A stretch of 64,000 bases of DNA from Candidatus Saccharimonadota bacterium (GTDB lineage Bacteria; Patescibacteriota; Saccharimonadia; Saccharimonadales; JAGQNJ01). Positions 1-11,494 of this stretch are shown here, in pieces. The notes beneath the pieces were generated by a model. The model was given only the letters and a program-made list of their open reading frames with translations, was not told the DNA's origin and did no database searches. Positions within the stretch are counted from its first letter, which is position 1; the number at the start of each line of letters is the position of its first letter. The stretch is from NCBI GenBank assembly GCA_020428405.1, contig JAGQMZ010000002.1, positions 33-64,032 of the forward strand, given 5' to 3'. A program made the translations under genes and the position numbers.

Positions 1-291
1 GGGCCAATGGAGTACAACCTTGATAGTGGCTTTGCACTGCCAGTTGTTGATGACTGGGGTACCCTAGCTTACATTAATCCGGCTGTACACAACCCATCAG
101 CTGCTGCTTGGGGTGTGGCTGACCAGGTCGGCTTCCTCTTTTCGGACTTCTCGGCTGGGTCACCTGGCGTGGTGGCGTTCAGTCGGGGTGGCCCTTGGGT
201 CAATGGCCCTTATTCGGGGCTGTTTACGCTTGGTCTTGTTTATACGCCGTCCGACTTCTCTCCGTCTGTCGGGTTCCGGGCTGCCCTGTGA
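1..291 (+). CDS. C-terminal part of a DGR-type variable (target) protein with C-type-lectin/FGE-like fold; 5' end lies outside the window
   Basis: Frame is open from base 1. The tail AAAWGVADQVGFLFSDF...FSRGGPW...SVGFRAAL* resembles the WG..D..GN..EW / RGGSW / GFR C-terminus of FGE/CLec DGR targets. The last ~170 nt are GC-rich and A-poor, and an Avd-like gene follows. Confidence 0.55.
   Translation, partial: GPMEYNLDSGFALPVVDDWGTLAYINPAVHNPSAAAWGVADQVGFLFSDFSAGSPGVVAFSRGGPWVNGPYSGLFTLGLVYTPSDFSPSVGFRAAL
110..291 (+). other. Putative DGR variable region (VR)
   Basis: Only 14 A in 171 nt (121-291) by my count, in an otherwise A/T-rich window. It sits at the extreme 3' end of the CLec-like ORF, as in known DGR targets. 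The 5' boundary is approximate because no TR copy is available to align. Confidence 0.45.
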
Positions 292-352
292 ATACCTTGT
301 CGCTTGATGCTTATTGCTTGACTGCTTAGGGCTTAACTTCTTGTCTTTTATT

Positions 353-382
353 GTCCGATTCCTGCCCCGCAGGACATCGGAC
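353..382. promoter_or_regulatory. GC-rich hairpin/cruciform downstream of the VR
   Basis: GTCCGATTCCTGC-ccc-GCAGGA(c)ATCGGAC gives a 13-bp stem with one bulge, about 60 nt after the stop codon. Its position matches the hairpin that supports target recognition in the Bordetella phage DGR. Confidence 0.35.
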
Positions 383-418
383 CATTCATATATCATGTAA
401 CTATAGGTTCTATTTGTA

Positions 419-793
419 ATGACACGCATTAAACCAAAATCTATGACCGCACCAGATGACCTGATTTTGTATACCAAAATGGTTGATTTCTTGAGCTGGT
501 TATTCCCAATTCTTAATACCTTTCCAAAAAACCAGCGTCTAGTGTTGCAGCAGCAACTGGGTAATAGCGCCCTGGATTGTCTGCGTCTGATTATTAGTGC
601 CCGTAACGCCCGCTTGCCAAGACGCAAGGCCAGTTTGTTGTTTGAGCTTAATGTTGAGTTTGAAGTTCTACGTAAACTTTTAACAGTTGCTCATACCATC
701 GGCTTCTTAAATGCCAAACGCACTGAAAATGGCATGGGACAGCTATTAGAACTTGGCAAGATGACCGGTGGCTGGCTAAAACGCTACGAGTAA
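419..793 (+). CDS. avd: Avd-like four-helix-bundle protein (DGR accessory variability determinant / 23S rRNA IVS protein family)
   Basis: 124 aa and basic. DLILYTKMVDFLSWLFPILNTFPKNQRLVLQQQLGNSALDCLRLI matches the ..Y.....L......FPK.E...L..Q..R.. pattern of the family. Located immediately downstream of the VR-like gene end. Confidence 0.6.
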   Translation: MTRIKPKSMTAPDDLILYTKMVDFLSWLFPILNTFPKNQRLVLQQQLGNSALDCLRLIISARNARLPRRKASLLFELNVEFEVLRKLLTVAHTIGFLNAKRTENGMGQLLELGKMTGGWLKRYE

Positions 794-797
794 TACC

Positions 798-834
798 TTG
801 ACACATAATTAATACTTACATACAATTAGTATTA
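798..834 (+). promoter_or_regulatory. Promoter plus inverted-repeat operator of the toxin-antitoxin pair
   Basis: TTGACA (798-803), N17, TACAAT (821-826). The 7-bp inverted repeat TAATACT (810-816) / AGTATTA (828-834) brackets the -10 box just before the antitoxin ATG. Confidence 0.45.
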
Positions 835-836
835 CT

Positions 837-1076
837 ATGATGTATACAAATTCAATTACCCCAAAAGGTCAAGTTACGATCCCAAAGGCTCTTAGAGATA
901 AGATTGGCTTAAAGCCTGGACAGTCGGCTCGGTTTGAGTTGCTTGATGAGCGTACTATTGTTATTCGTAAGCCATTGACCGACGAACAGGTTCGCCGTGT
1001 TGTTGGACCACCACGTGGTGATCAGCCTCTTACTGATAAAGAAAAAGCTCGCCTTAAAGCCCGAGGGCTGCTTTAA
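837..1076 (+). CDS. AbrB/MazE/SpoVT-family antitoxin
   Basis: ITPKGQVTIPKALRDKIGLKPGQSARFELLDERTIVI is a typical SpoVT/AbrB swapped-hairpin motif. It lies 2 nt upstream of the PIN gene. Confidence 0.8.
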   Translation: MMYTNSITPKGQVTIPKALRDKIGLKPGQSARFELLDERTIVIRKPLTDEQVRRVVGPPRGDQPLTDKEKARLKARGLL

Positions 1077-1078
1077 CT

Positions 1079-1456
1079 ATGACCTTACTTGACGCAAACT
1101 ACTTTTTGCGTTGGTTTTTAAATGATGTACCGAGTCAAAATAAAATCGTAAAGCAAACACTCGCCCAGGCTGAGCCAGACAGTCTCATGATGGATAGAAT
1201 TACATTAGCTGAAGTTACCTATGTTCTTAGGAGTCTTGGTTACAATCATCAGCAAGTGGTGATGGCTATAAAAGAATTCTACCTTGTTGCTTCAGTAAAA
1301 CCATTGGACAAGACCCTGAGCTTGGCTCTGGATATTTTTGAAGGCACTAGTCTTGATTTTGAAGATTGTTGGTTGGCCGCAAAAGTAAAAGATGCGGATA
1401 TGTCGTTAGCGTCGTTTGATAAGCAATTGCAAAGATTTGTCAGTAGTCTTGCTTAG
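1079..1456 (+). CDS. vapC: PIN-domain toxin (VapC-like ribonuclease)
   Basis: LLDANYFL (N-terminal Asp), LAEV, DFEDCWLAA and SFDKQL give the acidic residue spacing of a PIN domain. Paired with an AbrB-type antitoxin. Confidence 0.7.
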   Translation: MTLLDANYFLRWFLNDVPSQNKIVKQTLAQAEPDSLMMDRITLAEVTYVLRSLGYNHQQVVMAIKEFYLVASVKPLDKTLSLALDIFEGTSLDFEDCWLAAKVKDADMSLASFDKQLQRFVSSLA

Positions 1457-1460
1457 CTAC

Positions 1461-2312
1461 TTAGGCTTGTTCCCAGATTTCTTTAGTCAGCACGTTATAA
1501 CGCCTGAGCTTGTCTATAGTCGTAAACCGTACATCTGGTCGGTCTTTATCATCTCGATCCCAGTCCTCGCTAATTAACCCTCTGGTTCGCTGTTTGGCGT
1601 ATATTAAGTCTGTTAGCGTTGCACATACAAGTAGCATCGTCGGTCGTGGATTACCGGTTCGTTCGTTCCACTCATCAATTTCATCTTCAAAGTACTGGAC
1701 GTAGTTCTTTAGTCGCTTACGTAAACGGTAGTGCGGTAGGGTTGCCTCAAAGATTTCTAGTATGTAGCTACTTTGAACTGAATTTGGGTCGGCAAGTTCG
1801 TCAGTCTCACATTTATGGAAGCAGAGGTCAGGATTAATGAGTTCGCTGTCATTCATGAGGTCGTAATACCGTTCATCCTGATAATCCGCTCGAGTCTCGT
1901 AGTAATAACAGGTCGTGTGGTGGTAGCTGGCGTGTCGTGTATCATCAAGCTCAATGCAGCAGTTCGCTATATCTAAACAACTGTCAATAAAGCTCTGGCT
2001 GCGTTCATTATCGCGGTAGCGTATAGCAAGTCCATCTTCTGGGGCAAACGGTAGGTTTCGCAGGTGTCGGATACCATTAATCCCCATATAATAAATGGCT
2101 GGCTTAGTTTTATCCGCAAAGTGGTCTTTGTTATAAATCCAACATATGTAGTCTTTAGAGCGTAGGTCTTTAAGCCATAGGTTTATTGTTTTCTTATCTT
2201 TATGCTTCATCATTGTTTGTATTTGAATTCTTGTTAAGAAACGAAAGCTGTATAGTAAATTAATAATTTGTTTTTGTTTAGGTGTTATTTTTGGCAGCGA
2301 TTCTATTTTCAT
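1461..2312 (-). CDS. Replication-relaxation (Replic_Relax) family protein, plasmid/mobile-element associated
   Basis: The N-terminal wHTH-like ITPKQKQIINLLYSFRFLTRIQIQTMM...WLKDLRSKDYI resembles the L..RD..IL..L...R.LT..Q pattern of that family. Assigned from memory of the family, not from a search. Confidence 0.45.
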   Translation of the reverse strand: MKIESLPKITPKQKQIINLLYSFRFLTRIQIQTMMKHKDKKTINLWLKDLRSKDYICWIYNKDHFADKTKPAIYYMGINGIRHLRNLPFAPEDGLAIRYRDNERSQSFIDSCLDIANCCIELDDTRHASYHHTTCYYYETRADYQDERYYDLMNDSELINPDLCFHKCETDELADPNSVQSSYILEIFEATLPHYRLRKRLKNYVQYFEDEIDEWNERTGNPRPTMLLVCATLTDLIYAKQRTRGLISEDWDRDDKDRPDVRFTTIDKLRRYNVLTKEIWEQA

Positions 2313-2435
2313 ATGCCAAACCCTCCTACTCCGTTATATATAAAAGTAGGTACCACTATATTCCTAAACTAACAGATTGACACAAGCGTTATTCTGCCAT
2401 CGCCCATGGGGGCAAAATACATAGGCAATTTTGTA

Positions 2436-2524
2436 TTGACATGAGCATTATTGTAGCGTAGTATGTTTCATGAAGACCTTCGGCACCGTAGTTTATAAGC
2501 TACCCAGCGGAAGGCCTTTTTTAT
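2436..2524 (+). ncRNA. Candidate small RNA (promoter-hairpin-U tract unit) or 26-aa mini-ORF
   Basis: TTGACA (2436-2441), N17, TAGTAT (2459-2464). About 55 nt follow, with nested stems GACCTTCGGC...GCGGAAGGCC and GTAG...CTAC, then TTTTTTATTT. Confidence 0.2.
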
Positions 2525-2563
2525 TTGAGCTTATCTATCGAAAAGACTGACATAAAATATTTC

Positions 2564-2758
2564 CTATCGCTTTTGTTTTACATGATCCCAGAAAATATTT
2601 ATAAATATCTTATCTTTTTTAAAATAAGCAGAGCGAATATAGGCTTGGAGTCTTGGTGAACGTTTCTGAATAGCATGGTATTCTTTACGTGCTGCTTTCA
2701 TTACTTCTTTATGTGAAGTGCCTGGAAGCTTTCCGTATTTTGATTTATGTACTCTCAT
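2564..2758 (-). CDS. Hypothetical basic 64-aa protein
   Basis: ORF only, with no family recognised. Lies just downstream of the IS1595 transposase on the same strand. Confidence 0.3.
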   Translation of the reverse strand: MRVHKSKYGKLPGTSHKEVMKAARKEYHAIQKRSPRLQAYIRSAYFKKDKIFINIFWDHVKQKR

Positions 2759-2790
2759 TATTACCTACTACCTTAGCATAATGTTACTAT

Positions 2791-3749
2791 TAAATTATGG
2801 GTAAAAAGAAGTTCCTAGATCTTATTAAGCTCGCGGCGCAGCCTTTGCCAAAAGGAGCGAAAACACGTTTTGATGACGATGATTATAACGAAAGGCAAAC
2901 TCTGAAACGTACGAATGAAGCCAGTAAGGCGAAACAGAATGGTAAGTCCCATTCACAGAACGCTTCAACTGACCGAAAAAGCCCTCGACGTGGTTCGTCG
3001 TAACACCATTCTTTACGAACTCTTTTGCAATATGCCTGACTGACTCATGTTCAAATACAACTCGTACACGTAAATGCTTATAGATCTTGCTTTCATCAGT
3101 GTGAAGCATAGAACCAGGTCTTACATTTGATTCCAAGAACGGTACGGCTGTGTCTGAGTTGGCTTTCGGTACCACGGCTGTTCTAACATGTCCACCAACT
3201 TCCAGAGCTGCTAAAACTGGTGTTTTGTTGTCACCTTTCTTACTTTGTTTACTCTTACCGCCAATATATGCCTCATCTACTTCAATTGGGGTGCCTAAAA
3301 AACCAAGTTTGCCACTTTCATTCATGAGTATGCGTATCATCTTGGCCATACGGTGGGCTGTTTTATAACTGACGCGTACTTGTCGTTCTATTTCCTTAGC
3401 GCTGACCCCATTCTTGGATACAGAGAACAGGTACAATGCATGGAACCAGTCTGTGAGTGGTGTAGTAGATTTTTCAAAAATAGTGCCAGCTAGCGGATAT
3501 ATCTGATGTCTACATTCCTTACAGACAAAAGACATGCGTTGTTTAACTCTGTAATACTTTGGACTAACGATACCGCAGTGCGGACAGGCCTTCATGCCAC
3601 CGTAGCGTGCATCAAAAAGATATTGCAGGCATGCATCATCATCCGTAAATTGTGCTTGCATATCTTTTAGCGTATATCTCATAGTGTTGCTCTACTTGTC
3701 TACAAGTACATTATAACACTTAAGAACGTGTACATATTGTTGTAAAATA
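2791..3749 (-). mobile_element. IS1595-family insertion sequence (ends approximate)
   Basis: An 8-bp direct repeat GTTACTAT at 2783-2790 and 3750-3757 flanks the transposase gene, and IS1595 elements typically make 8-bp duplications. I could not identify convincing terminal inverted repeats. Confidence 0.4.
2825..3682 (-). CDS. IS1595-family (ISXO2-like) DDE transposase
   Basis: N-terminal zinc ribbon CPHCG...CKECRH, then VEVDEAYIGG...HTDE...TNHVEGFFGQLKR...YVSEFAFRYNHR, the characteristic IS1595 transposase layout. Confidence 0.9.
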   Translation of the reverse strand: MRYTLKDMQAQFTDDDACLQYLFDARYGGMKACPHCGIVSPKYYRVKQRMSFVCKECRHQIYPLAGTIFEKSTTPLTDWFHALYLFSVSKNGVSAKEIERQVRVSYKTAHRMAKMIRILMNESGKLGFLGTPIEVDEAYIGGKSKQSKKGDNKTPVLAALEVGGHVRTAVVPKANSDTAVPFLESNVRPGSMLHTDESKIYKHLRVRVVFEHESVRHIAKEFVKNGVTTNHVEGFFGQLKRSVNGTYHSVSPYWLHSYVSEFAFRYNHRHQNVFSLLLAKAAPRA

Positions 3750-6765: not shown

Positions 6766-9060
6766 TTATATACTATTAAGTTTGAACTGAGTATATCGTT
6801 CGGCTGCTAAACGAGTTAATTCTGGATCTTCATCTTTGTTTACAAATATCATTGCATCAGCAATAACTGGGTGGACTTCTGCAAGCTTATCGTGCATCTG
6901 TTTAACTAGTTTTCTGTAACCAGGATGGCCTTGTGGAGTTGTTCTTAGTTCGTGCAAGTGAAAAGCTTCTCTTGCGTTATATGTAACTTTCCAGCGCATT
7001 TTATGGCCAAGTAAGGTTGCATACTGGGCTTCTAAATCATAACCAGCTTTTTGTAAGTCACTATACAACGACAGACTAATTTCAAAACATTGCTCAAATT
7101 CATCTGTTAGATTAGCTTGCTCAACTAAATCAGGGACATCAAAGCCTAGCCTTGGCGAAAGATACTGCCATTCAAGGTCATCGACAATTCGATGACGTTG
7201 TAAATCTCTAAAAATACCGTAGTCACAAACAAGATCCCAAGAATAATGCGCTTTTTCTAATGCTCTGCCAGGACGGTGCCTTCTGTTTAGTCTTTCTCCC
7301 ATATAGCTGTTAAATATTTCTAAGCGTTTTTGATAGGGCATTTCATTAACTTGTTGCTGAATTTCTTCAAGCGGTGCATTTGAATGCTCGTATACCATAT
7401 CTGCAACTAGGTCTAGCTCATTTCGTGGCCAGTAGCTGGAGAGTGTAACTTCAGATGTTTTGTCCGAAATGCCGTATGATTGAGAGACAAGTTCGTTAGC
7501 TAATTTACTTACTGCTTTATAAGTATTTGCCCTATATGCAATAGTGGCACCGCCACGCTCAGGCTTATCTGCTCTTTCAAGAAATGTCGGAATAACTTTT
7601 CTTAACTCATCAAGCAACTGTTTACCTACTTTTTGGGCTTCTGGCAATTTGTCTGACATAAGGTGCATTATTAAACTTTCTAGAGCCTGACCTGAAGCGT
7701 AAATACCTACAGTTGATGTGGTTGCAACGGGCAAAAGTGGTCTTGCGGCGTCGCAAGCTTGTGCCCGGGTTGCGCTCTTCCAAGCTGTGTCTTGCTGATT
7801 TTTTGATACGCTAGAATTTGATCTCACGTATGCGGTCAGTTTGTGTACAATATCCGAGTATATATCAAAAATTTTATCGATTTTGGCTATGTATTTATCT
7901 TTGGTTTCAGTGTCTAAATATTTAGGTATATGGTACCTATATTTACCTTGACTATCTTTTTGGTCAAAATATATGTACCGAGTTGACTGCTCTAGGTATG
8001 ATGCCAATCTACCCCACTCAAGCTTTTTTGTAAGCAGATTAGAAGCGTTTTCTACTACAACATGTTGGCCAACTAGCTGTTGTACAGAATCATCGCCATA
8101 TGCTGTAATGACACGTTTTAGTAAGTTCTCATCTTTGCCGGCTTTTTCTATAAATTCGTCCAAAATCGTTATCCGCATATCATCACCGCGTCGGCTAAGC
8201 CTTGCCATTGCTGCGGCTATTGTTACCGGGCTTAGTTCTTCGTTAAAGGCATAAACACTGCTGTTGGTGTTAGTGACTACATTGGAAAGATATTGTTTGC
8301 CGGCATCGGTTATTTTATAGCCGTCATCATCTTTTATTAGTAATTCTTCGTTTAATGTATTTACTGGTTTAAGCATTGGCTGAACTTTCTCCCATATCAT
8401 TTTATGTACTGTATCAATATCAAGTAATTGACCATCTCTTACGCAATCTATTCGTTCAAAATCCTTAGGGAATAACTCGCACAAATCATCGTATACTTCT
8501 ACAGCTGTTTGTAAATGTTTTAAGTCAGCTTCATGGATATCTCGTTTTTTATCCGTATAAGTTCGCTCTTCTTTTTGGTCTACCAGCTTTTGAGCTATCT
8601 CGGCCGGAACTCTAAGCACAAAGTTTTTATCTGGCCTGGGTATTCCAAGCATTTCAAATTCTAAGTTATCAAGCCAAATAAAATAGCCACGTCTTTCCTC
8701 TGGATGACTAAATTTTGTTCCTTGGTGGCCCATGTTAGAGCCTGTAAATCTGTTGCACAGTACAATTTTACCGGCCTTCAGTGCTTTTTTTATGTCAGAA
8801 GATGCCTGGTATCTATCTAGGGCATAAAATAGCGAACCAGTATATGGACCTACCTGCTCGGCTGTGCCGTATTTGCCATTCAAGTATTCCTTGACAAAAA
8901 AGCTTGAATTTTCTTCGTATTGAGGAAAGTCAAAAGTTGCAACATCATGGCCTTCGCGCTCCAACCGTTGTTTTAGTAATTTAAATTGTGTACCTTTACC
9001 TGAACCGTCGGTACCTTCGATTACTATAAAAAGACCTTCCCCACCCGTTTTGCTGGGCAT
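6766..9060 (-). CDS. tmk-thyX: Fusion protein: thymidylate kinase (N-terminal) plus tandem-type FAD-dependent thymidylate synthase ThyX (C-terminal)
   Basis: The N-terminus has the FIVIEGTDGSGKGTQ P-loop and an ALDRY motif. The C-terminal ~530 aa carries ASYLEQSTRY and LQRHR...AREAFHLHELRTTPQGHPGYR, which are ThyX signatures in a duplicated arrangement. An alternative GTG start at 9075 would overlap dcd. Confidence 0.8.
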   Translation of the reverse strand: MPSKTGGEGLFIVIEGTDGSGKGTQFKLLKQRLEREGHDVATFDFPQYEENSSFFVKEYLNGKYGTAEQVGPYTGSLFYALDRYQASSDIKKALKAGKIVLCNRFTGSNMGHQGTKFSHPEERRGYFIWLDNLEFEMLGIPRPDKNFVLRVPAEIAQKLVDQKEERTYTDKKRDIHEADLKHLQTAVEVYDDLCELFPKDFERIDCVRDGQLLDIDTVHKMIWEKVQPMLKPVNTLNEELLIKDDDGYKITDAGKQYLSNVVTNTNSSVYAFNEELSPVTIAAAMARLSRRGDDMRITILDEFIEKAGKDENLLKRVITAYGDDSVQQLVGQHVVVENASNLLTKKLEWGRLASYLEQSTRYIYFDQKDSQGKYRYHIPKYLDTETKDKYIAKIDKIFDIYSDIVHKLTAYVRSNSSVSKNQQDTAWKSATRAQACDAARPLLPVATTSTVGIYASGQALESLIMHLMSDKLPEAQKVGKQLLDELRKVIPTFLERADKPERGGATIAYRANTYKAVSKLANELVSQSYGISDKTSEVTLSSYWPRNELDLVADMVYEHSNAPLEEIQQQVNEMPYQKRLEIFNSYMGERLNRRHRPGRALEKAHYSWDLVCDYGIFRDLQRHRIVDDLEWQYLSPRLGFDVPDLVEQANLTDEFEQCFEISLSLYSDLQKAGYDLEAQYATLLGHKMRWKVTYNAREAFHLHELRTTPQGHPGYRKLVKQMHDKLAEVHPVIADAMIFVNKDEDPELTRLAAERYTQFKLNSI

Positions 9061-9067
9061 GGAAGTA

Positions 9068-9781
9068 TCAGTCACCTTTTAAACCTGCAATTCCTTTCGG
9101 TAAAATTCTTTTATCCTTATATGCTTTTGGCAGCATCTGGTCAGGAGTCCAATTTTTAATTAATGTATCAAGATCTGTTCCTGACTGATATTTGCCGCTA
9201 AACCCGCTATTTCTTCCTTGGCCGTAGTTACCTTCAACCTGGCCTGTTTCTAAAAATATTGCTTGTGCGATCCGTTCACCAACTGGCAAAAGCACGATTT
9301 CTTTGTGATTTAAGTTATAAATTTCTAGTGTTAGCCGGTTTATATATCCGGGGTCAACCCAGCCGGCATCAAAACACACTGCTACACCATTTCGTCCCCA
9401 ACTTGAACGAGCCTTTATTTCATATGCTCCAGGTGGTTTTATGCCAAAAAATTCGTGTGTATGAGCTAAAATTCGTTCGCCAGGCTTTAATGGTATGATG
9501 GGGTGTTTTGGCGGTATGTTCTTAAGAAGCTTAACACCGTTAATATCGCACCATTCCTTATGGGGTAATGCGGTTTGTGGTTTACCAAAGTATCTTTGAA
9601 CGTCAGACTCATCAAATGGATTATAGATTGTATTATCACCGGCTCGTTCAGTTCTATAATAGTTTGCTCCTAAAGTTACATCTAGACTAGCATGAGATAT
9701 ATGCTTGGGACTAAACGGCCGACAGACTATGTGCCCGTCATCTAAAGCCTTTTTAATTTGAATATTACTATATACTCCCAT
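9068..9781 (-). CDS. dcd: dCTP deaminase / dUTPase-superfamily protein
   Basis: IQIKKALDDGHIV..PF, then KARSSWGRNGV...DAGWVDPGY.NRLTLEIYN, typical of Dcd. The ATG at 9781 is preferred over the track's TTG at 9802. Confidence 0.8.
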   Translation of the reverse strand: MGVYSNIQIKKALDDGHIVCRPFSPKHISHASLDVTLGANYYRTERAGDNTIYNPFDESDVQRYFGKPQTALPHKEWCDINGVKLLKNIPPKHPIIPLKPGERILAHTHEFFGIKPPGAYEIKARSSWGRNGVAVCFDAGWVDPGYINRLTLEIYNLNHKEIVLLPVGERIAQAIFLETGQVEGNYGQGRNSGFSGKYQSGTDLDTLIKNWTPDQMLPKAYKDKRILPKGIAGLKGD

Positions 9782-9847
9782 GTTTGTAAGATATTGTAGC
9801 AATTTTTATAAGTCTTTTGCTAGACAAGATACCATATTACAACAGAC

Positions 9848-10498
9848 TTATAAGTTTAATGCTTTAGCAATAGTCGCCCCTACTTGATCAATACTGCCGT
9901 TGGCGTTAATAACATGAAGATTAGTTGGTAAACCGGCTAAGTCATTAACAAATTCATAAGCCTTAACATAACCATTACGCATACGTCTTTTATATTCATT
10001 ATTTTGCATTTCAAAATAATTCGTTGTTTGTTCGGGTTGGATTTTTAATCTTTCTTGTTGTCTTGTAAATAGTTCGTTATCGTTTATAGAAAAGAGCAAT
10101 AAATCATCAATGTCCCATAATCGCAGCATGCGCTCGCAGGCATCGTAAGCATGGCTAACATCTTTTAGCTGAGACCCAAATGCATTGTAGGCCAATATTG
10201 CTAAAGGGCTTCGATCTATAATAATGACATCGTAGTTTTCGGCTTTTTGCTTCATATCTTGGCCTAGAGCGGTATGCATAGCCAATGAAATGTATAAATC
10301 AACCTCGGGCGTTCTTTCAATATTTGATAACGAAACTTTTCGTAGCAGTTCACCAATTGGTGTTCCGCCGCTAGCTCGTGTCCGAAGAACTTTTAAGCCC
10401 TTATCTTCAAGTTTTTTAACTAACCCATCGACTTGAGTTGTTTTGCCACTGCCATCAGGGCCGTCAATAGCAATAATACGCGCTTTTTGATTAGTCAC
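9848..10498 (-). CDS. tmk: Thymidylate kinase (stand-alone copy)
   Basis: IIAIDGPDGSGKTTQ P-loop, IIDRSPLA motif, GTG start. Confidence 0.8.
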   Translation of the reverse strand: MTNQKARIIAIDGPDGSGKTTQVDGLVKKLEDKGLKVLRTRASGGTPIGELLRKVSLSNIERTPEVDLYISLAMHTALGQDMKQKAENYDVIIIDRSPLAILAYNAFGSQLKDVSHAYDACERMLRLWDIDDLLLFSINDNELFTRQQERLKIQPEQTTNYFEMQNNEYKRRMRNGYVKAYEFVNDLAGLPTNLHVINANGSIDQVGATIAKALNL

Positions 10499-10531: not shown

Positions 10532-11494
10532 CTAGACTTCAGATACGGCAACTCTAATACTGGGCCCCATAGTGGTTGTAATATGAACGGATTGAACGTA
10601 GGAATTTTTTAAGCTAGCTGGCTTAGCGGATTTTAGTGCGGCTACCAAGACATCTAGGTTTTTTTTCAAATCTTCGGCTGAAAAGTTAGTTTTGCCAATG
10701 TTCACATGAACAATCCCGTTACTATCTACACGGTACTCGATACGTCCTGACTTAGCTTGCTTTACAGCAGAAGCAATATCTTTAGTTACCGTACCACTCT
10801 TAGGATTAGGCATAAGACCTTTGGGCCCTAATACTCGAGCAAATTTACTAAGTTTTGCCATCATCATCGGAGTAGATACCAGAACGTCAAAGTCTATGTC
10901 TTCTTTTTCTAATCTTTGTAAAAATTCATCGCTTTCAGCAATATCAGCACCAGCTGCCTTTGCTTTCTTAAGGTCATCAATATCCGCAAAAACGGCAACT
11001 TTAACTTCTTTACCGGTACCAGCTGGCAAGCTAACAGTACCGCGAATATTTTGATCAGCCTGTCTTGGGTCAACACCCAGTCTTACGTGTAGTTCCACGC
11101 TGGCATCAAATTTTGCAGGATTTGTTTTTAGTGCTAGATCCAAAGCCTCTGTAAAAGTATATTGCTTGGTTTTATCAATAAGCTCGTATGCTTTACGGTA
11201 GTTTTTCCCTCTTCTTTCGGCTAGTGGGCGTGGTGGTTTAACTTGTTTAACAGGTTTCTTTGGCTCTTCTTCTTTTTCTTCTTGTGGTCCTGACTTTTGG
11301 CGCTCAATCTTAGCCTGTTTCTCTTCGGTTGCTTTTATACCTTTTGCACTATGCTTACCAGCTTTAGCAATTTTTGCATCGTCTTTTTTAAGCAAACCTT
11401 TAATTGCAGCTTCAAGTTCTGCAATCGTGTTCTTTTCTGTTACTTCTAGTCCAAGTTCTTTAGCCTGTTCTAGTAATTCGGCTTTCTTTGCCAT
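10532..11494 (-). CDS. rplA: 50S ribosomal protein L1 (uL1) with a ~95-aa N-terminal extension
   Basis: The C-terminal ~225 aa (YTFTEALDLAL...FDASVELHVRLGVDPRQADQNIRGTV) is canonical L1. The N-terminus adds a helix-extended-helix-like AELLEQAKELGLEVTEKNTIAELEAAI plus a K/E-rich linker. Confidence 0.93.
   Translation of the reverse strand: MAKKAELLEQAKELGLEVTEKNTIAELEAAIKGLLKKDDAKIAKAGKHSAKGIKATEEKQAKIERQKSGPQEEKEEEPKKPVKQVKPPRPLAERRGKNYRKAYELIDKTKQYTFTEALDLALKTNPAKFDASVELHVRLGVDPRQADQNIRGTVSLPAGTGKEVKVAVFADIDDLKKAKAAGADIAESDEFLQRLEKEDIDFDVLVSTPMMMAKLSKFARVLGPKGLMPNPKSGTVTKDIASAVKQAKSGRIEYRVDSNGIVHVNIGKTNFSAEDLKKNLDVLVAALKSAKPASLKNSYVQSVHITTTMGPSIRVAVSEV

What the first reader, a model, noticed from the sequence alone, without database searches (positions are those of the whole stretch)
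1..793. Tail of a diversity-generating retroelement: adenine-depleted VR, GC hairpin and Avd, with TR and RT missing from the window
Seen:
- The ORF running in from the left edge ends ...RGGPW...SVGFRAAL*.
- Its last ~170 nt hold only 14 A, in a window that is otherwise A/T-rich.
- A 13-bp GC hairpin lies ~60 nt past the stop.
- A 124-aa basic four-helix-bundle-type ORF with the FPK motif follows.

Established:
- DGR targets commonly end in a C-type-lectin/FGE-like fold.
- The VR sits at the extreme 3' end and is mutated at positions templated by TR adenines.
- Avd is the usual accessory gene, and a hairpin/cruciform downstream of the VR supports retrohoming in the Bordetella phage system.
- DGRs are reported to be frequent in CPR genomes.

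Inference:
- This is the target-avd end of a DGR whose TR and reverse transcriptase lie upstream of base 1 or elsewhere.
- The usual target-avd-TR-RT order is not followed, because a TA module directly follows avd.
Basis: partly seen in the sequence, partly recalled or inferred. Interest (0 to 1): 0.7.

Follow-up and report, generated by a model that had tools for sequence, protein, structure and literature searches.

The report
Active DGR tail in a Saccharibacteria genome
The left edge of the window is the target-gene end and accessory gene of a working diversity-generating retroelement in a Saccharibacteria chromosome; its template repeat and reverse transcriptase lie just left of base 1, so it is an ordinary member of a known system, though it carries a conserved CTT-repeat signal I did not find described.

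Summary

- **In the window.** Bases 1-291 are the last 96 codons of a 396-aa surface-protein gene. Bases 125-288 are its variable repeat (VR). ORF 419-793 is a true Avd.
- **Left of base 1.** Overlapping public contigs of the same strain, with exact overlaps of 170 and 197 nt, supply the missing parts. A 382-aa DGR-type reverse transcriptase lies at about -2123..-975. The 164-nt template repeat (TR) lies at about -2346..-2183 on the opposite strand.
- **TR/VR pattern.** The window VR differs from the TR at 18 of 29 TR adenines and at 1 of 135 other positions.
- **Activity.** Across five other samples the flanks carry at most one difference. The VR differs at up to 16 sites, all but two of them TR-adenine sites. 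The element was therefore recently active.
- **Gene order.** It is TR(inverted)-RT-target-avd. A TA pair, a Replic_Relax gene and IS1595 follow.
- **Less ordinary.** Between the VR and a conserved, covarying 13-bp hairpin lies an array of (G/A)CTT motifs spaced 7-8 nt apart. Chains of at least four such motifs follow 19 of 69 surveyed VRs from several phyla, and none of at least three follow a TR. I found no description of it in the papers read.

Verdict: new member of a known kind.

The parts
1..291 (+). 3' end (96 codons plus stop) of the DGR target gene. The full gene is 396 aa and starts about 899 nt left of base 1.
   Evidence: ORF. The full gene was rebuilt from L015 plus the window. The family profile A2 aligns with a relative's target that has Pfam FGE-sulfatase at 7.5e-8 (hhalign probability 100, E 8e-41). 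A2 also weakly matches the CLec-fold DGR variable protein TaqVP, PDB 5VF4 (E 0.0087).
125..288 (+). Variable repeat (VR), 164 nt, homologous to the TR at L006 152-315.
   Evidence: Ungapped alignment: 18 of 29 TR adenines are changed and 1 of 135 other positions (Fisher p 1.4e-15). All between-sample differences fall inside it.
269..288 (+). IMH-like G+C-rich 3' end of the VR (TCGGGTTCCGGGCTGCCCTG). It is identical in TR and VR, and the two sequences diverge after it.
   Evidence: The last A-site mismatch is at 268. VR and TR flanks diverge from 289.
295..347 (+). Periodic array of NCTT motifs: GCTT at 302, 309, 316, 324 and 331, flanked by CCTT at 295 and by A/TCTT at 336-344. Spacing is 7-8 nt.
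   Evidence: Unique in the window (3 overlapping pattern matches against 0.17 expected). The CTT columns are invariant in 8 relatives while the spacers vary. Chains of at least 4 follow 19 of 69 surveyed VRs, against 0.01 in shuffles; chains of at least 3 follow 0 of 69 TRs.
353..382 (.). Conserved G+C-rich inverted repeat (hairpin or cruciform): 7 + 6 bp, bulged C, 3-nt loop.
   Evidence: Folding. Across 8 relatives, 97% of cells pair and 7 of 13 pairs show changes on both sides; slid controls pair at 30-47%.
419..793 (+). avd, the DGR accessory variability determinant (124 aa, basic, four predicted helices).
   Evidence: Pfam PF22296 at 4.9e-20. NCBIfam NF033474 at 83.9 bits, above the 80-bit cut-off. 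A single-sequence AF2 model has four helices, and its top three PDB fold matches are Bordetella phage Avd, all with weak scores.
837..1456 (+). Neighbouring type II toxin-antitoxin pair: AbrB/MazE-type antitoxin at 837-1076 and PIN toxin at 1079-1456. It is not part of the DGR.
   Evidence: Pfam PF04014 at 1.2e-8 and PF01850 at 6.7e-11. The relative L007 has a different TA pair at the same place.

Best explanation
Bases 1-793 are the downstream half of a complete and recently active diversity-generating retroelement in the chromosome of a Saccharimonadales (CPR) bacterium.

**Layout.** In window numbering the cassette is:
- TR on the minus strand at about -2346..-2183;
- RT gene on the plus strand at -2123..-975;
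- target gene at -899..291, with the VR at 125-288;
- CTT array at 295-347;
- hairpin at 353-382;
- avd at 419-793.

**Inferred mechanism**, by analogy with the Bordetella phage system:
1. The TR is transcribed divergently from the RT gene, together with a conserved structured domain of about 170-230 nt on its 3' side.
2. The RT-Avd complex copies this RNA into cDNA and misincorporates opposite template adenines.
3. The cDNA replaces the VR, starting at the G+C-rich IMH-like end (269-288).
4. This recodes up to 29 positions, mostly first and second codon positions, in the C-terminal FGE/C-type-lectin-like domain of a membrane-anchored, probably extracellular protein.
5. The CTT array and the hairpin on the VR side, both absent from the TR side, most likely mark the recipient site.

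**Shown:** all parts, the A-specific TR/VR pattern, and VR-restricted variation between samples.

**Inferred:** the RNA, cDNA and homing steps, the topology of the target protein, and the roles of the array and hairpin.
For: **Accessory gene.** Avd scores above the curated cut-offs.

**TR.**
- It was found as the spurious ORF P0002 on L006.
- The register is L006 position = window position + 27.
- 18 of 29 TR adenines are changed in the window VR, against 1 of 135 other bases.

**RT (P0128).**
- It starts 59 nt from the TR on the other strand. Its first 30 residues are encoded on L006.
- It carries IPIGNLTSQ and YMDD.
- Its best solved relative is the Bordetella DGR RT 8ub7 at E 1e-43. Group II intron and retron RTs score 4e-17 or worse.

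**Physical chain.** rc(L006) overlaps L015 by 197 exact nt, and L015 overlaps window 1-170 by 170 exact nt. The 10 extra residues of the source contig's own product P0001 also match L015.

**Activity.**
- Sample SRR27686864 differs from the window/L015 reference at 16 of 164 VR positions and at 0 of 5,891 flanking positions (p 4e-26).
- There are three VR haplotypes among six assemblies.
- The part of the TR that could be compared is identical in three samples.

**Relatives.** Eight Saccharibacteria MAGs have the same cassette. L007 is syntenic from TR to IS1595.

**cis elements and RNA.**
- The hairpin covaries.
- The RNA domain 3' of the TR is conserved, with 10 of 41 pairs changed on both sides. 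A covariance model finds it only next to TRs.
Against: - The RT and TR were read from contigs of other samples (Logan and ENA), not from the window's own assembly, which stops about 30 nt left of base 1.
- Two VR differences, at 210 and 240, are at non-adenine TR positions.
- The target gives no Pfam or NCBIfam hit of its own. Its fold assignment rests on transitive homology and one marginal PDB profile hit.
- The hairpin differs from the phage-type consensus. It has a 3-nt loop rather than GRNA, and it lies 64 nt from the VR rather than 4-34 bp.
- No reads were mapped, so variation within a single sample was not measured.
Confidence: 0.93

Rival explanations
1. The locus is a decayed DGR remnant. 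VR and avd survive, but the element no longer homes, and the VR differences are old.
For: The window itself lacks RT and TR. The source contig ends inside the target gene.
Against: An intact 382-aa RT with its catalytic motifs and an intact TR sit immediately upstream on contigs that overlap exactly. Strains with at most 1 SNP in 4 kb of flank differ at 3-16 VR sites, almost all at TR adenines, which requires recent homing.
Confidence: 0.03
2. The A-poor tail is only the composition of an FGE/lectin-type domain and has nothing to do with retrohoming.
For: The RGGxW...GFR motifs are general to FGE-sulfatase-like domains.
Against: A 164-nt TR exists with A-specific mismatches (p 1.4e-15). It is flanked by a DGR-type RT and a conserved RNA domain.
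Confidence: 0.01
3. The CTT array and the hairpin are not homing signals. They would be expression signals: a 3' end or stabiliser of the target mRNA, or a leader or operator for avd.
For: Both lie in the 127-nt gap between the target stop and the avd start. The hairpin would also form in RNA. Wu et al. considered a terminator role for such repeats (PMC5758913).
Against: - No T-run follows the hairpin, and no terminator was called there.
- In DGRs with several targets (L085, L104, L067), each VR has its own array and hairpin, including VRs not followed by avd.
- Chains of at least three never follow a TR (0 of 69).
- In the Bordetella phage the equivalent hairpin acts at the DNA level in target recognition (PMC3240598).
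Confidence: 0.25
4. The CTT array is a by-product. It would be tandem 7-8-bp duplications left by imprecise cDNA integration at the 3' junction, with no function of its own.
For: The unit length is short and slightly irregular (7 or 8). The copy number differs between clades (3 to 8).
Against: Within the close clade the copy number and register are fixed. The CTT columns are invariant while the spacer bases have diverged, which points to selection on the motif.
Confidence: 0.1

Closest known systems
Bordetella phage BPP-1 DGR (mtd-avd-TR-brt)
   Same: - VR at the 3' end of the target gene.
- A-specific TR/VR differences.
- A G+C-rich IMH-like end.
- An inverted repeat downstream of the VR.
- A basic Avd.
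- An RT with IGxxxSQ and YMDD. The RT aligns with bRT (PDB 8ub7) at E 1e-43 and about 31% identity by tblastn.
   Different: - Order and strands: here TR(-)-RT-target-avd, with TR and RT divergent; BPP-1 is target-avd-TR-RT on one strand.
- BPP-1 has 30 nt between the mtd stop and avd. Its 8-bp GAAA-loop hairpin follows the stop directly, and it has a single CTTGAG rather than an array.
- Here there are 127 nt, a six-unit CTT array and a 13-bp bulged hairpin with a 3-nt loop.
- The host is a chromosomal CPR bacterium, not a phage.
DGRs of candidate phyla radiation bacteria (CPR set of Wu et al. 2018, PMC5758913; clade 2 of Roux et al. 2021, PMC8144416)
   Same: Cellular, chromosomal DGRs of Patescibacteria whose targets are hard to annotate. 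Eight Saccharibacteria MAGs carry close relatives, with Avd 76-82% and RT 66-74% identical. Wu et al. already note that TR and RT can lie on different strands.
   Different: I did not place the RT in their trees, so the clade assignment is by host taxonomy only. The CTT array and the RNA domain 3' of the TR are not mentioned in the parts of those papers that I read.
Thermus aquaticus DGR variable protein TaqVP (PDB 5VF4), C-type-lectin fold
   Same: The target-family profile matches it in three collinear motifs: hLTxxEW, DLvGNVWEW, and RGGxW...GxR. The last motif covers TaqVP's VR.
   Different: The E-value is only 0.0087, and no model of the target's fold could be made. The N-terminus here has two hydrophobic helices, and more distant relatives have a prepilin-type N_methyl motif instead.

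Membership tests
Diversity-generating retroelement (DGR) | TR/VR repeat pair whose differences fall at adenines of the TR. | tested here: met
   164-nt pair. 18 of 29 A sites are changed, against 1 of 135 non-A sites.
Diversity-generating retroelement (DGR) | DGR-clade reverse transcriptase ([ILV]GxxxSQ in motif 4, YxDD) close to the TR. | tested here: met
   P0128 has IPIGNLTSQ and YMDD. Its best PDB relative is bRT 8ub7 at 1e-43, against 4e-17 for group II intron RTs. It starts 59 nt from the TR. It lies outside the window, on a contig that overlaps exactly.
Diversity-generating retroelement (DGR) | VR at the 3' end of a protein-coding target gene. | tested here: met
   The VR (125-288) ends 3 nt before the stop of a 396-aa ORF.
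Diversity-generating retroelement (DGR) | G+C-rich IMH at the VR 3' end, with a diverging IMH* flank at the TR. | tested here: met
   Bases 269-288 are identical in TR and VR and 70% G+C. The flanks diverge from 289.
Diversity-generating retroelement (DGR) | Actual diversification of the VR in natural populations. | tested here: met
   Three haplotypes in six assemblies. 16 of 164 VR positions differ against 0 of 5,891 flank positions in one comparison. Reads were not mapped.
Diversity-generating retroelement (DGR) | RT, TR, target and avd in one genome, with linkage in the window's own assembly. | tested here: inconclusive
   Linkage rests on exact overlaps of 170 nt and 197 nt with contigs from other samples. 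The source contig ends about 30 nt left of base 1.
Phage-type DGR target hairpin (Guo et al. 2011) | 7-10 bp G+C-rich stem, 4-nt GRNA loop, 4-34 bp after the VR. | tested here: not met
   A conserved, covarying inverted repeat is present. However, it has 13 bp with a bulge, a 3-nt loop (CCC, CGT or CAT in relatives), and lies 64 nt after the VR.
Avd (PF22296 / NF033474) | Score above the curated family cut-off; small basic four-helix protein. | tested here: met
   72.5 bits against a 40-bit cut-off, and 83.9 against 80. pI is 10.2. The low-confidence model has four helices.
C-type-lectin / FGE-sulfatase-fold DGR variable protein | C-terminal CLec/FGE-like domain that carries the VR. | tested here: inconclusive
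   No direct Pfam, NCBIfam or PDB hit. The family profile hits TaqVP at E 0.0087. It is clearly homologous to a relative whose target passes the Pfam FGE-sulfatase cut-off. The fragment model was unusable, with pLDDT 35.
VapBC-like type II toxin-antitoxin | Adjacent small AbrB/MazE-fold antitoxin and PIN-domain toxin genes. | tested here: met
   PF04014 at 35.2 bits against a 24.7-bit cut-off, and PF01850 at 43.3 against 23.6. The two genes are 2 nt apart.

The most novel reading that the evidence does not exclude
The periodic CTT array (3-8 CTT motifs spaced 7-8 nt apart on the sense strand, between the IMH and the G+C hairpin) may be a previously undescribed part of the DGR recipient site. 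It would be read by the RT-Avd-RNA particle, or would act on single-stranded DNA during cDNA integration. That would explain how a sizeable subset of DGRs from several bacterial phyla, and possibly archaea, tell the VR from the TR.
Probability: 0.35. Interest if true: 0.65.

Novelty: new member of a known kind. Interest (0 to 1): 0.42.

Why it matters
Saccharibacteria live attached to host bacteria. A surface protein that is rewritten at up to 29 nucleotide positions is a plausible tool for keeping or changing that attachment.

The locus offers a compact natural case of about 3.2 kb. Every part has been identified, and there is evidence of recent activity in several public samples.

How DGR cDNA finds and enters its target is still an open question. 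A VR-side signal that is conserved and strand-specific, and that chains of three or more never show at TRs, gives a concrete element to delete or transplant in homing assays.

Tried and rejected
- **TR inside the window.** A blastn search of 1-300 against the window at word size 7 found no second copy. The TR-domain covariance model also found nothing in the window.
- **Shared 30-mer scans.** Exact scans of the 30-mer shared by TR and VR in genome contigs and metagenome contigs gave no hits. The strain is therefore not in those collections.
- **RT fragment as query.** The 30-aa RT N-terminal fragment was too short for a protein search. I reached the RT through a relative's RT instead.
- **Gene next to the TR.** A search with this gene (L006 728-973) found only relatives of 83% identity or less, and no longer contig of this strain.
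- **Target protein.** It has no Pfam or NCBIfam hit and no single-sequence PDB hit. An AF2 model of the 106-aa C-terminal fragment had pLDDT 35 and was discarded.
- **Avd.** It has no sequence hit in the PDB. Its single-sequence model is only moderately confident; its best fold matches are Bordetella Avd, at weak E-values.
- **Rfam.** No family matches the TR contigs.
- **Intrinsic terminator.** None was called at the hairpin.
- **Second A-poor stretch.** The stretch at 11157-11389 lies in a minus-strand ORF, so it is T-poor on its coding strand and not DGR-like.
- **Paul et al. 2017.** This paper on CPR DGRs could not be read.

Full report
**The observation**

The frame-1 ORF that enters at base 1 ends ...RGGPWVNGPYSGLFTLGLVYTPSDFSPSVGFRAAL* at 291. 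Bases 110-291 hold 13 A in 182 nt. The window as a whole has 26% A and 39% G+C. The 172-nt stretch with the fewest A in all 64 kb starts at base 100.

A hairpin lies at 353-382. It has stems of 7 and 6 bp, a bulged C and a CCC loop. As RNA it folds at -19.6 kcal/mol (z = -5.2).

ORF 419-793 encodes a 124-aa protein of pI 10.2. It matches Pfam bAvd at E 4.9e-20 and the NCBIfam Avd equivalog above its cut-off.

What follows avd:
- an AbrB/MazE antitoxin at 837-1076 and a PIN toxin at 1079-1456;
- on the minus strand, a Replic_Relax gene at 1461-2312 and an IS1595 transposase at 2825-3682;
- then rplL and rplJ with their L10 leader.

Nearly all other genes of the window are on the minus strand and are housekeeping genes. 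The setting is therefore chromosomal.

**Finding the missing parts**

No TR copy lies in the window.

A look-up of the exact Avd protein found nine contigs that carry it; five of them (L001-L005), each from a different sample, were read. When aligned, they match the window everywhere except at scattered positions between 181 and 268 and one single-base difference in each of two contigs' flanks.

A protein search with the 96-aa ORF fragment gave two hits:
- P0001 is the source contig's own product. That contig is 65,641 nt long, and the product runs only 10 residues beyond base 1.
- P0002 is an 83-aa 'protein' that reads ...AFNRGGTWNNGPNSGLFTLNLENTPSDFNPNIGFRAAL.... It is the target tail with asparagines where the VR varies.

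P0002 lies on the 975-nt contig L006. L006 152-315 aligns without gaps to window 125-288, in the register L006 = window + 27. Every mismatch sits at a TR adenine except window 240.

The minus strand of L006 starts an ORF, MKKINNTKDFTSLSTLEVAFKGASRGKRYR. A search with a relative's RT returned P0128 (382 aa), which has exactly this N-terminus.

The two contigs that carry P0128 (L015 and L016) come from the same samples as L001 and L002. L015 overlaps rc(L006) by 197 exact bases and window 1-170 by 170 exact bases.

Both ends of L015 fall in the stretch of about 40 nt that TR and VR share exactly. This explains why the Logan assemblies break there.

**The rebuilt cassette**

In window numbering:

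| Part | Position | Strand |
|---|---|---|
| Conserved hypothetical gene | -3006..-2759 | minus |
| Non-coding gap | about 410 nt | |
| TR | -2346..-2183 | minus |
| RT gene | -2123..-975 | plus |
| Target gene (396 aa) | -899..291 | plus |
| VR | 125-288 | plus |
| avd | 419-793 | plus |

- **RT.** It has IPIGNLTSQ and YMDD. Its best solved relative is the Bordetella DGR RT (8ub7, E 1e-43). Group II intron and retron RTs score 4e-17 or worse.
- **Target, N-terminus.** It has two hydrophobic segments separated by a basic loop, then AYA-Q. I infer from this that the C-terminal domain is outside the cell.
- **Target, family.**
  - It has no family hit of its own.
  - A profile of six homologues matches TaqVP, a C-type-lectin-fold DGR variable protein, in three collinear motifs at E 0.0087.
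  - The same profile aligns at probability 100 with a more distant target that passes the Pfam cut-offs for FGE-sulfatase and N_methyl.

**Evidence of activity**

The TR has 29 A in 164 nt. Each complete VR haplotype is changed at 18 of those sites and at 0-2 of the 135 other positions. For the window, Fisher p is 1.4e-15. The changed sites are mostly first and second codon positions.

Sample SRR27686864 differs from the reference at 16 VR positions and at none of 5,891 flanking positions (p 4e-26). The window differs from the commonest haplotype at 181, 210 and 260.

The two non-A sites (210, 240) are third-codon positions next to A sites. Wu et al. report non-A differences in 23% of DGRs.

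The part of the TR that could be compared is identical in three samples.

**Relatives and architecture**

Eight Saccharibacteria MAGs carry Avd proteins 76-82% identical to this one. They show two gene orders:
- TR(-)-RT-target-avd, as here: L007, L009, L010.
- target-avd-RT(-)-TR(+): L011, L013, L014.

TR and RT are divergent in both orders.

L007 is also syntenic downstream. It has a TA pair of another family, then Replic_Relax, then IS1595.

More distant relatives (RT about 50% identical) sit beside type IV secretion-like genes. Their targets carry a prepilin motif.

Wu et al. list 48 DGR architectures and state that TR and RT can be on different strands. Roux et al. place CPR DGRs in a clade of their own. 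The element is therefore a member of a known kind.

**The recipient-site signals**

*Hairpin.* It is conserved in eight relatives. 97% of cells pair and 7 of 13 pairs are changed on both sides; slid controls pair at 30-47%. It departs from the phage-type pattern of a 7-10 bp stem, a GRNA loop and 4-34 bp from the VR.

*CTT array.*
- Between the stop codon and the hairpin lies GCTT at 302, 309, 316, 324 and 331, with related motifs on both sides.
- The CTT columns are invariant in all relatives while the spacers vary.
- The pattern occurs nowhere else in the window.

*Survey of other DGR loci.*
- I surveyed 90 DGR loci and found 76 A-biased VR/TR pairs, giving 69 distinct VR 3' flanks.
- CTT chains at 7-8 nt spacing reach three or more motifs in 26 flanks and four or more in 19.
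- Shuffles of the same flanks give 0.21 and 0.01.
- CTT is far ahead of the other 63 trinucleotides, and 7-8 nt is the best spacing.
- No TR 3' flank has a chain of three or more, on either strand.
- The array occurs in Nitrospirales, Armatimonadetes, Bacteroidota, Desantisbacteria and Parcubacteria loci. It occurs at both VRs of two-target elements, and it usually abuts the hairpin.
- BPP-1 has only 30 nt between mtd and avd, with a single CTTGAG before its hairpin.

I found no mention of such an array in the papers I could read. Its role is inferred, not shown.

**The TR side**

The 170-230 nt on the 3' side of the TR are conserved in all close relatives, whatever the gene order. The consensus structure has 41 pairs, of which 10 are changed on both sides; 94% of cells pair, against 25-48% in slid controls.

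A covariance model built from it gave these results:
- strong matches in untrained relatives (E 1e-19 to 1e-31);
- weak matches in loci with about 50% RT identity; in every one checked against a mapped TR, the match abuts the 3' end of that TR;
- no match in the window;
- no match in BPP-1.

Rfam has no matching family. By analogy with the spacer region of the Bordetella DGR RNA (my own knowledge), this is the likely RT-Avd binding and priming domain.

**Verdict**

This is an ordinary but complete and demonstrably active DGR of a CPR bacterium. The most interesting by-product is the CTT array, a candidate recipient-site element that can be tested.

Noticed in passing
window 295-347; also L025, L027, L034, L036, L057, L085, L104, L105, L107 (VR 3' flanks): An array of 3-8 CTT motifs spaced 7-8 nt apart on the sense strand, between the VR and the G+C hairpin. 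Chains of at least 4 occur in 19 of 69 surveyed VR flanks from several phyla. Chains of at least 3 are absent from all 69 TR flanks.
   Followed up: yes
L006 316-546 (about -2347..-2577 in window numbering, minus strand): A conserved structured RNA domain directly 3' of the TR, with 41 consensus pairs and covariation. The covariance model R1 finds it next to TRs across Saccharibacteria DGRs. It is not in Rfam.
   Followed up: yes
L025, L026, L027 (JGI metagenome contigs); L013 12558-14407: More distant relatives of this DGR sit beside type IV secretion-like genes (T4SS pilin/TrbC, TrbL, TraC-like, VirB4-like, CHAP, TraG-like). L027 also has Replic_Relax and a serine recombinase. Their targets carry a prepilin N_methyl motif plus an FGE-sulfatase domain.
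   Followed up: partly
window 837-3682; L007 10371-12832: The block after avd (TA pair, Replic_Relax, IS1595 transposase) is syntenic in L007, but with a TA pair of a different family on the other strand. The DGR may travel as part of a small island inserted next to rplL.
   Followed up: partly
window 402-416 and L006 520-534: A shared CTATAGGTT(C/T)T motif lies just upstream of avd and in the variable loop of the last stem of the TR 3' domain. It could be a promoter-like element or a chance match.
   Followed up: no
window 6766-10498 (minus strand): A 769-aa ORF combines an N-terminal thymidylate kinase domain with a C-terminal ThyX domain. Next to it lie a dCTP deaminase and a second thymidylate kinase, all between rplA and rplJ.
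   Followed up: no
window 10532-11494 (minus strand); 11157-11389: The ribosomal protein L1 ORF, as listed, has about 120 extra N-terminal residues. The second-lowest A content of the plus strand falls there. It is T-poor on its coding strand, so it is not DGR-like.
   Followed up: partly
L015 and L016 ends; L001-L003 starts (window about 141-181): The Logan contigs of this strain break inside the run of about 40 nt that TR and VR share exactly. DGR loci of this kind will therefore usually be split in short-read assemblies.
   Followed up: yes
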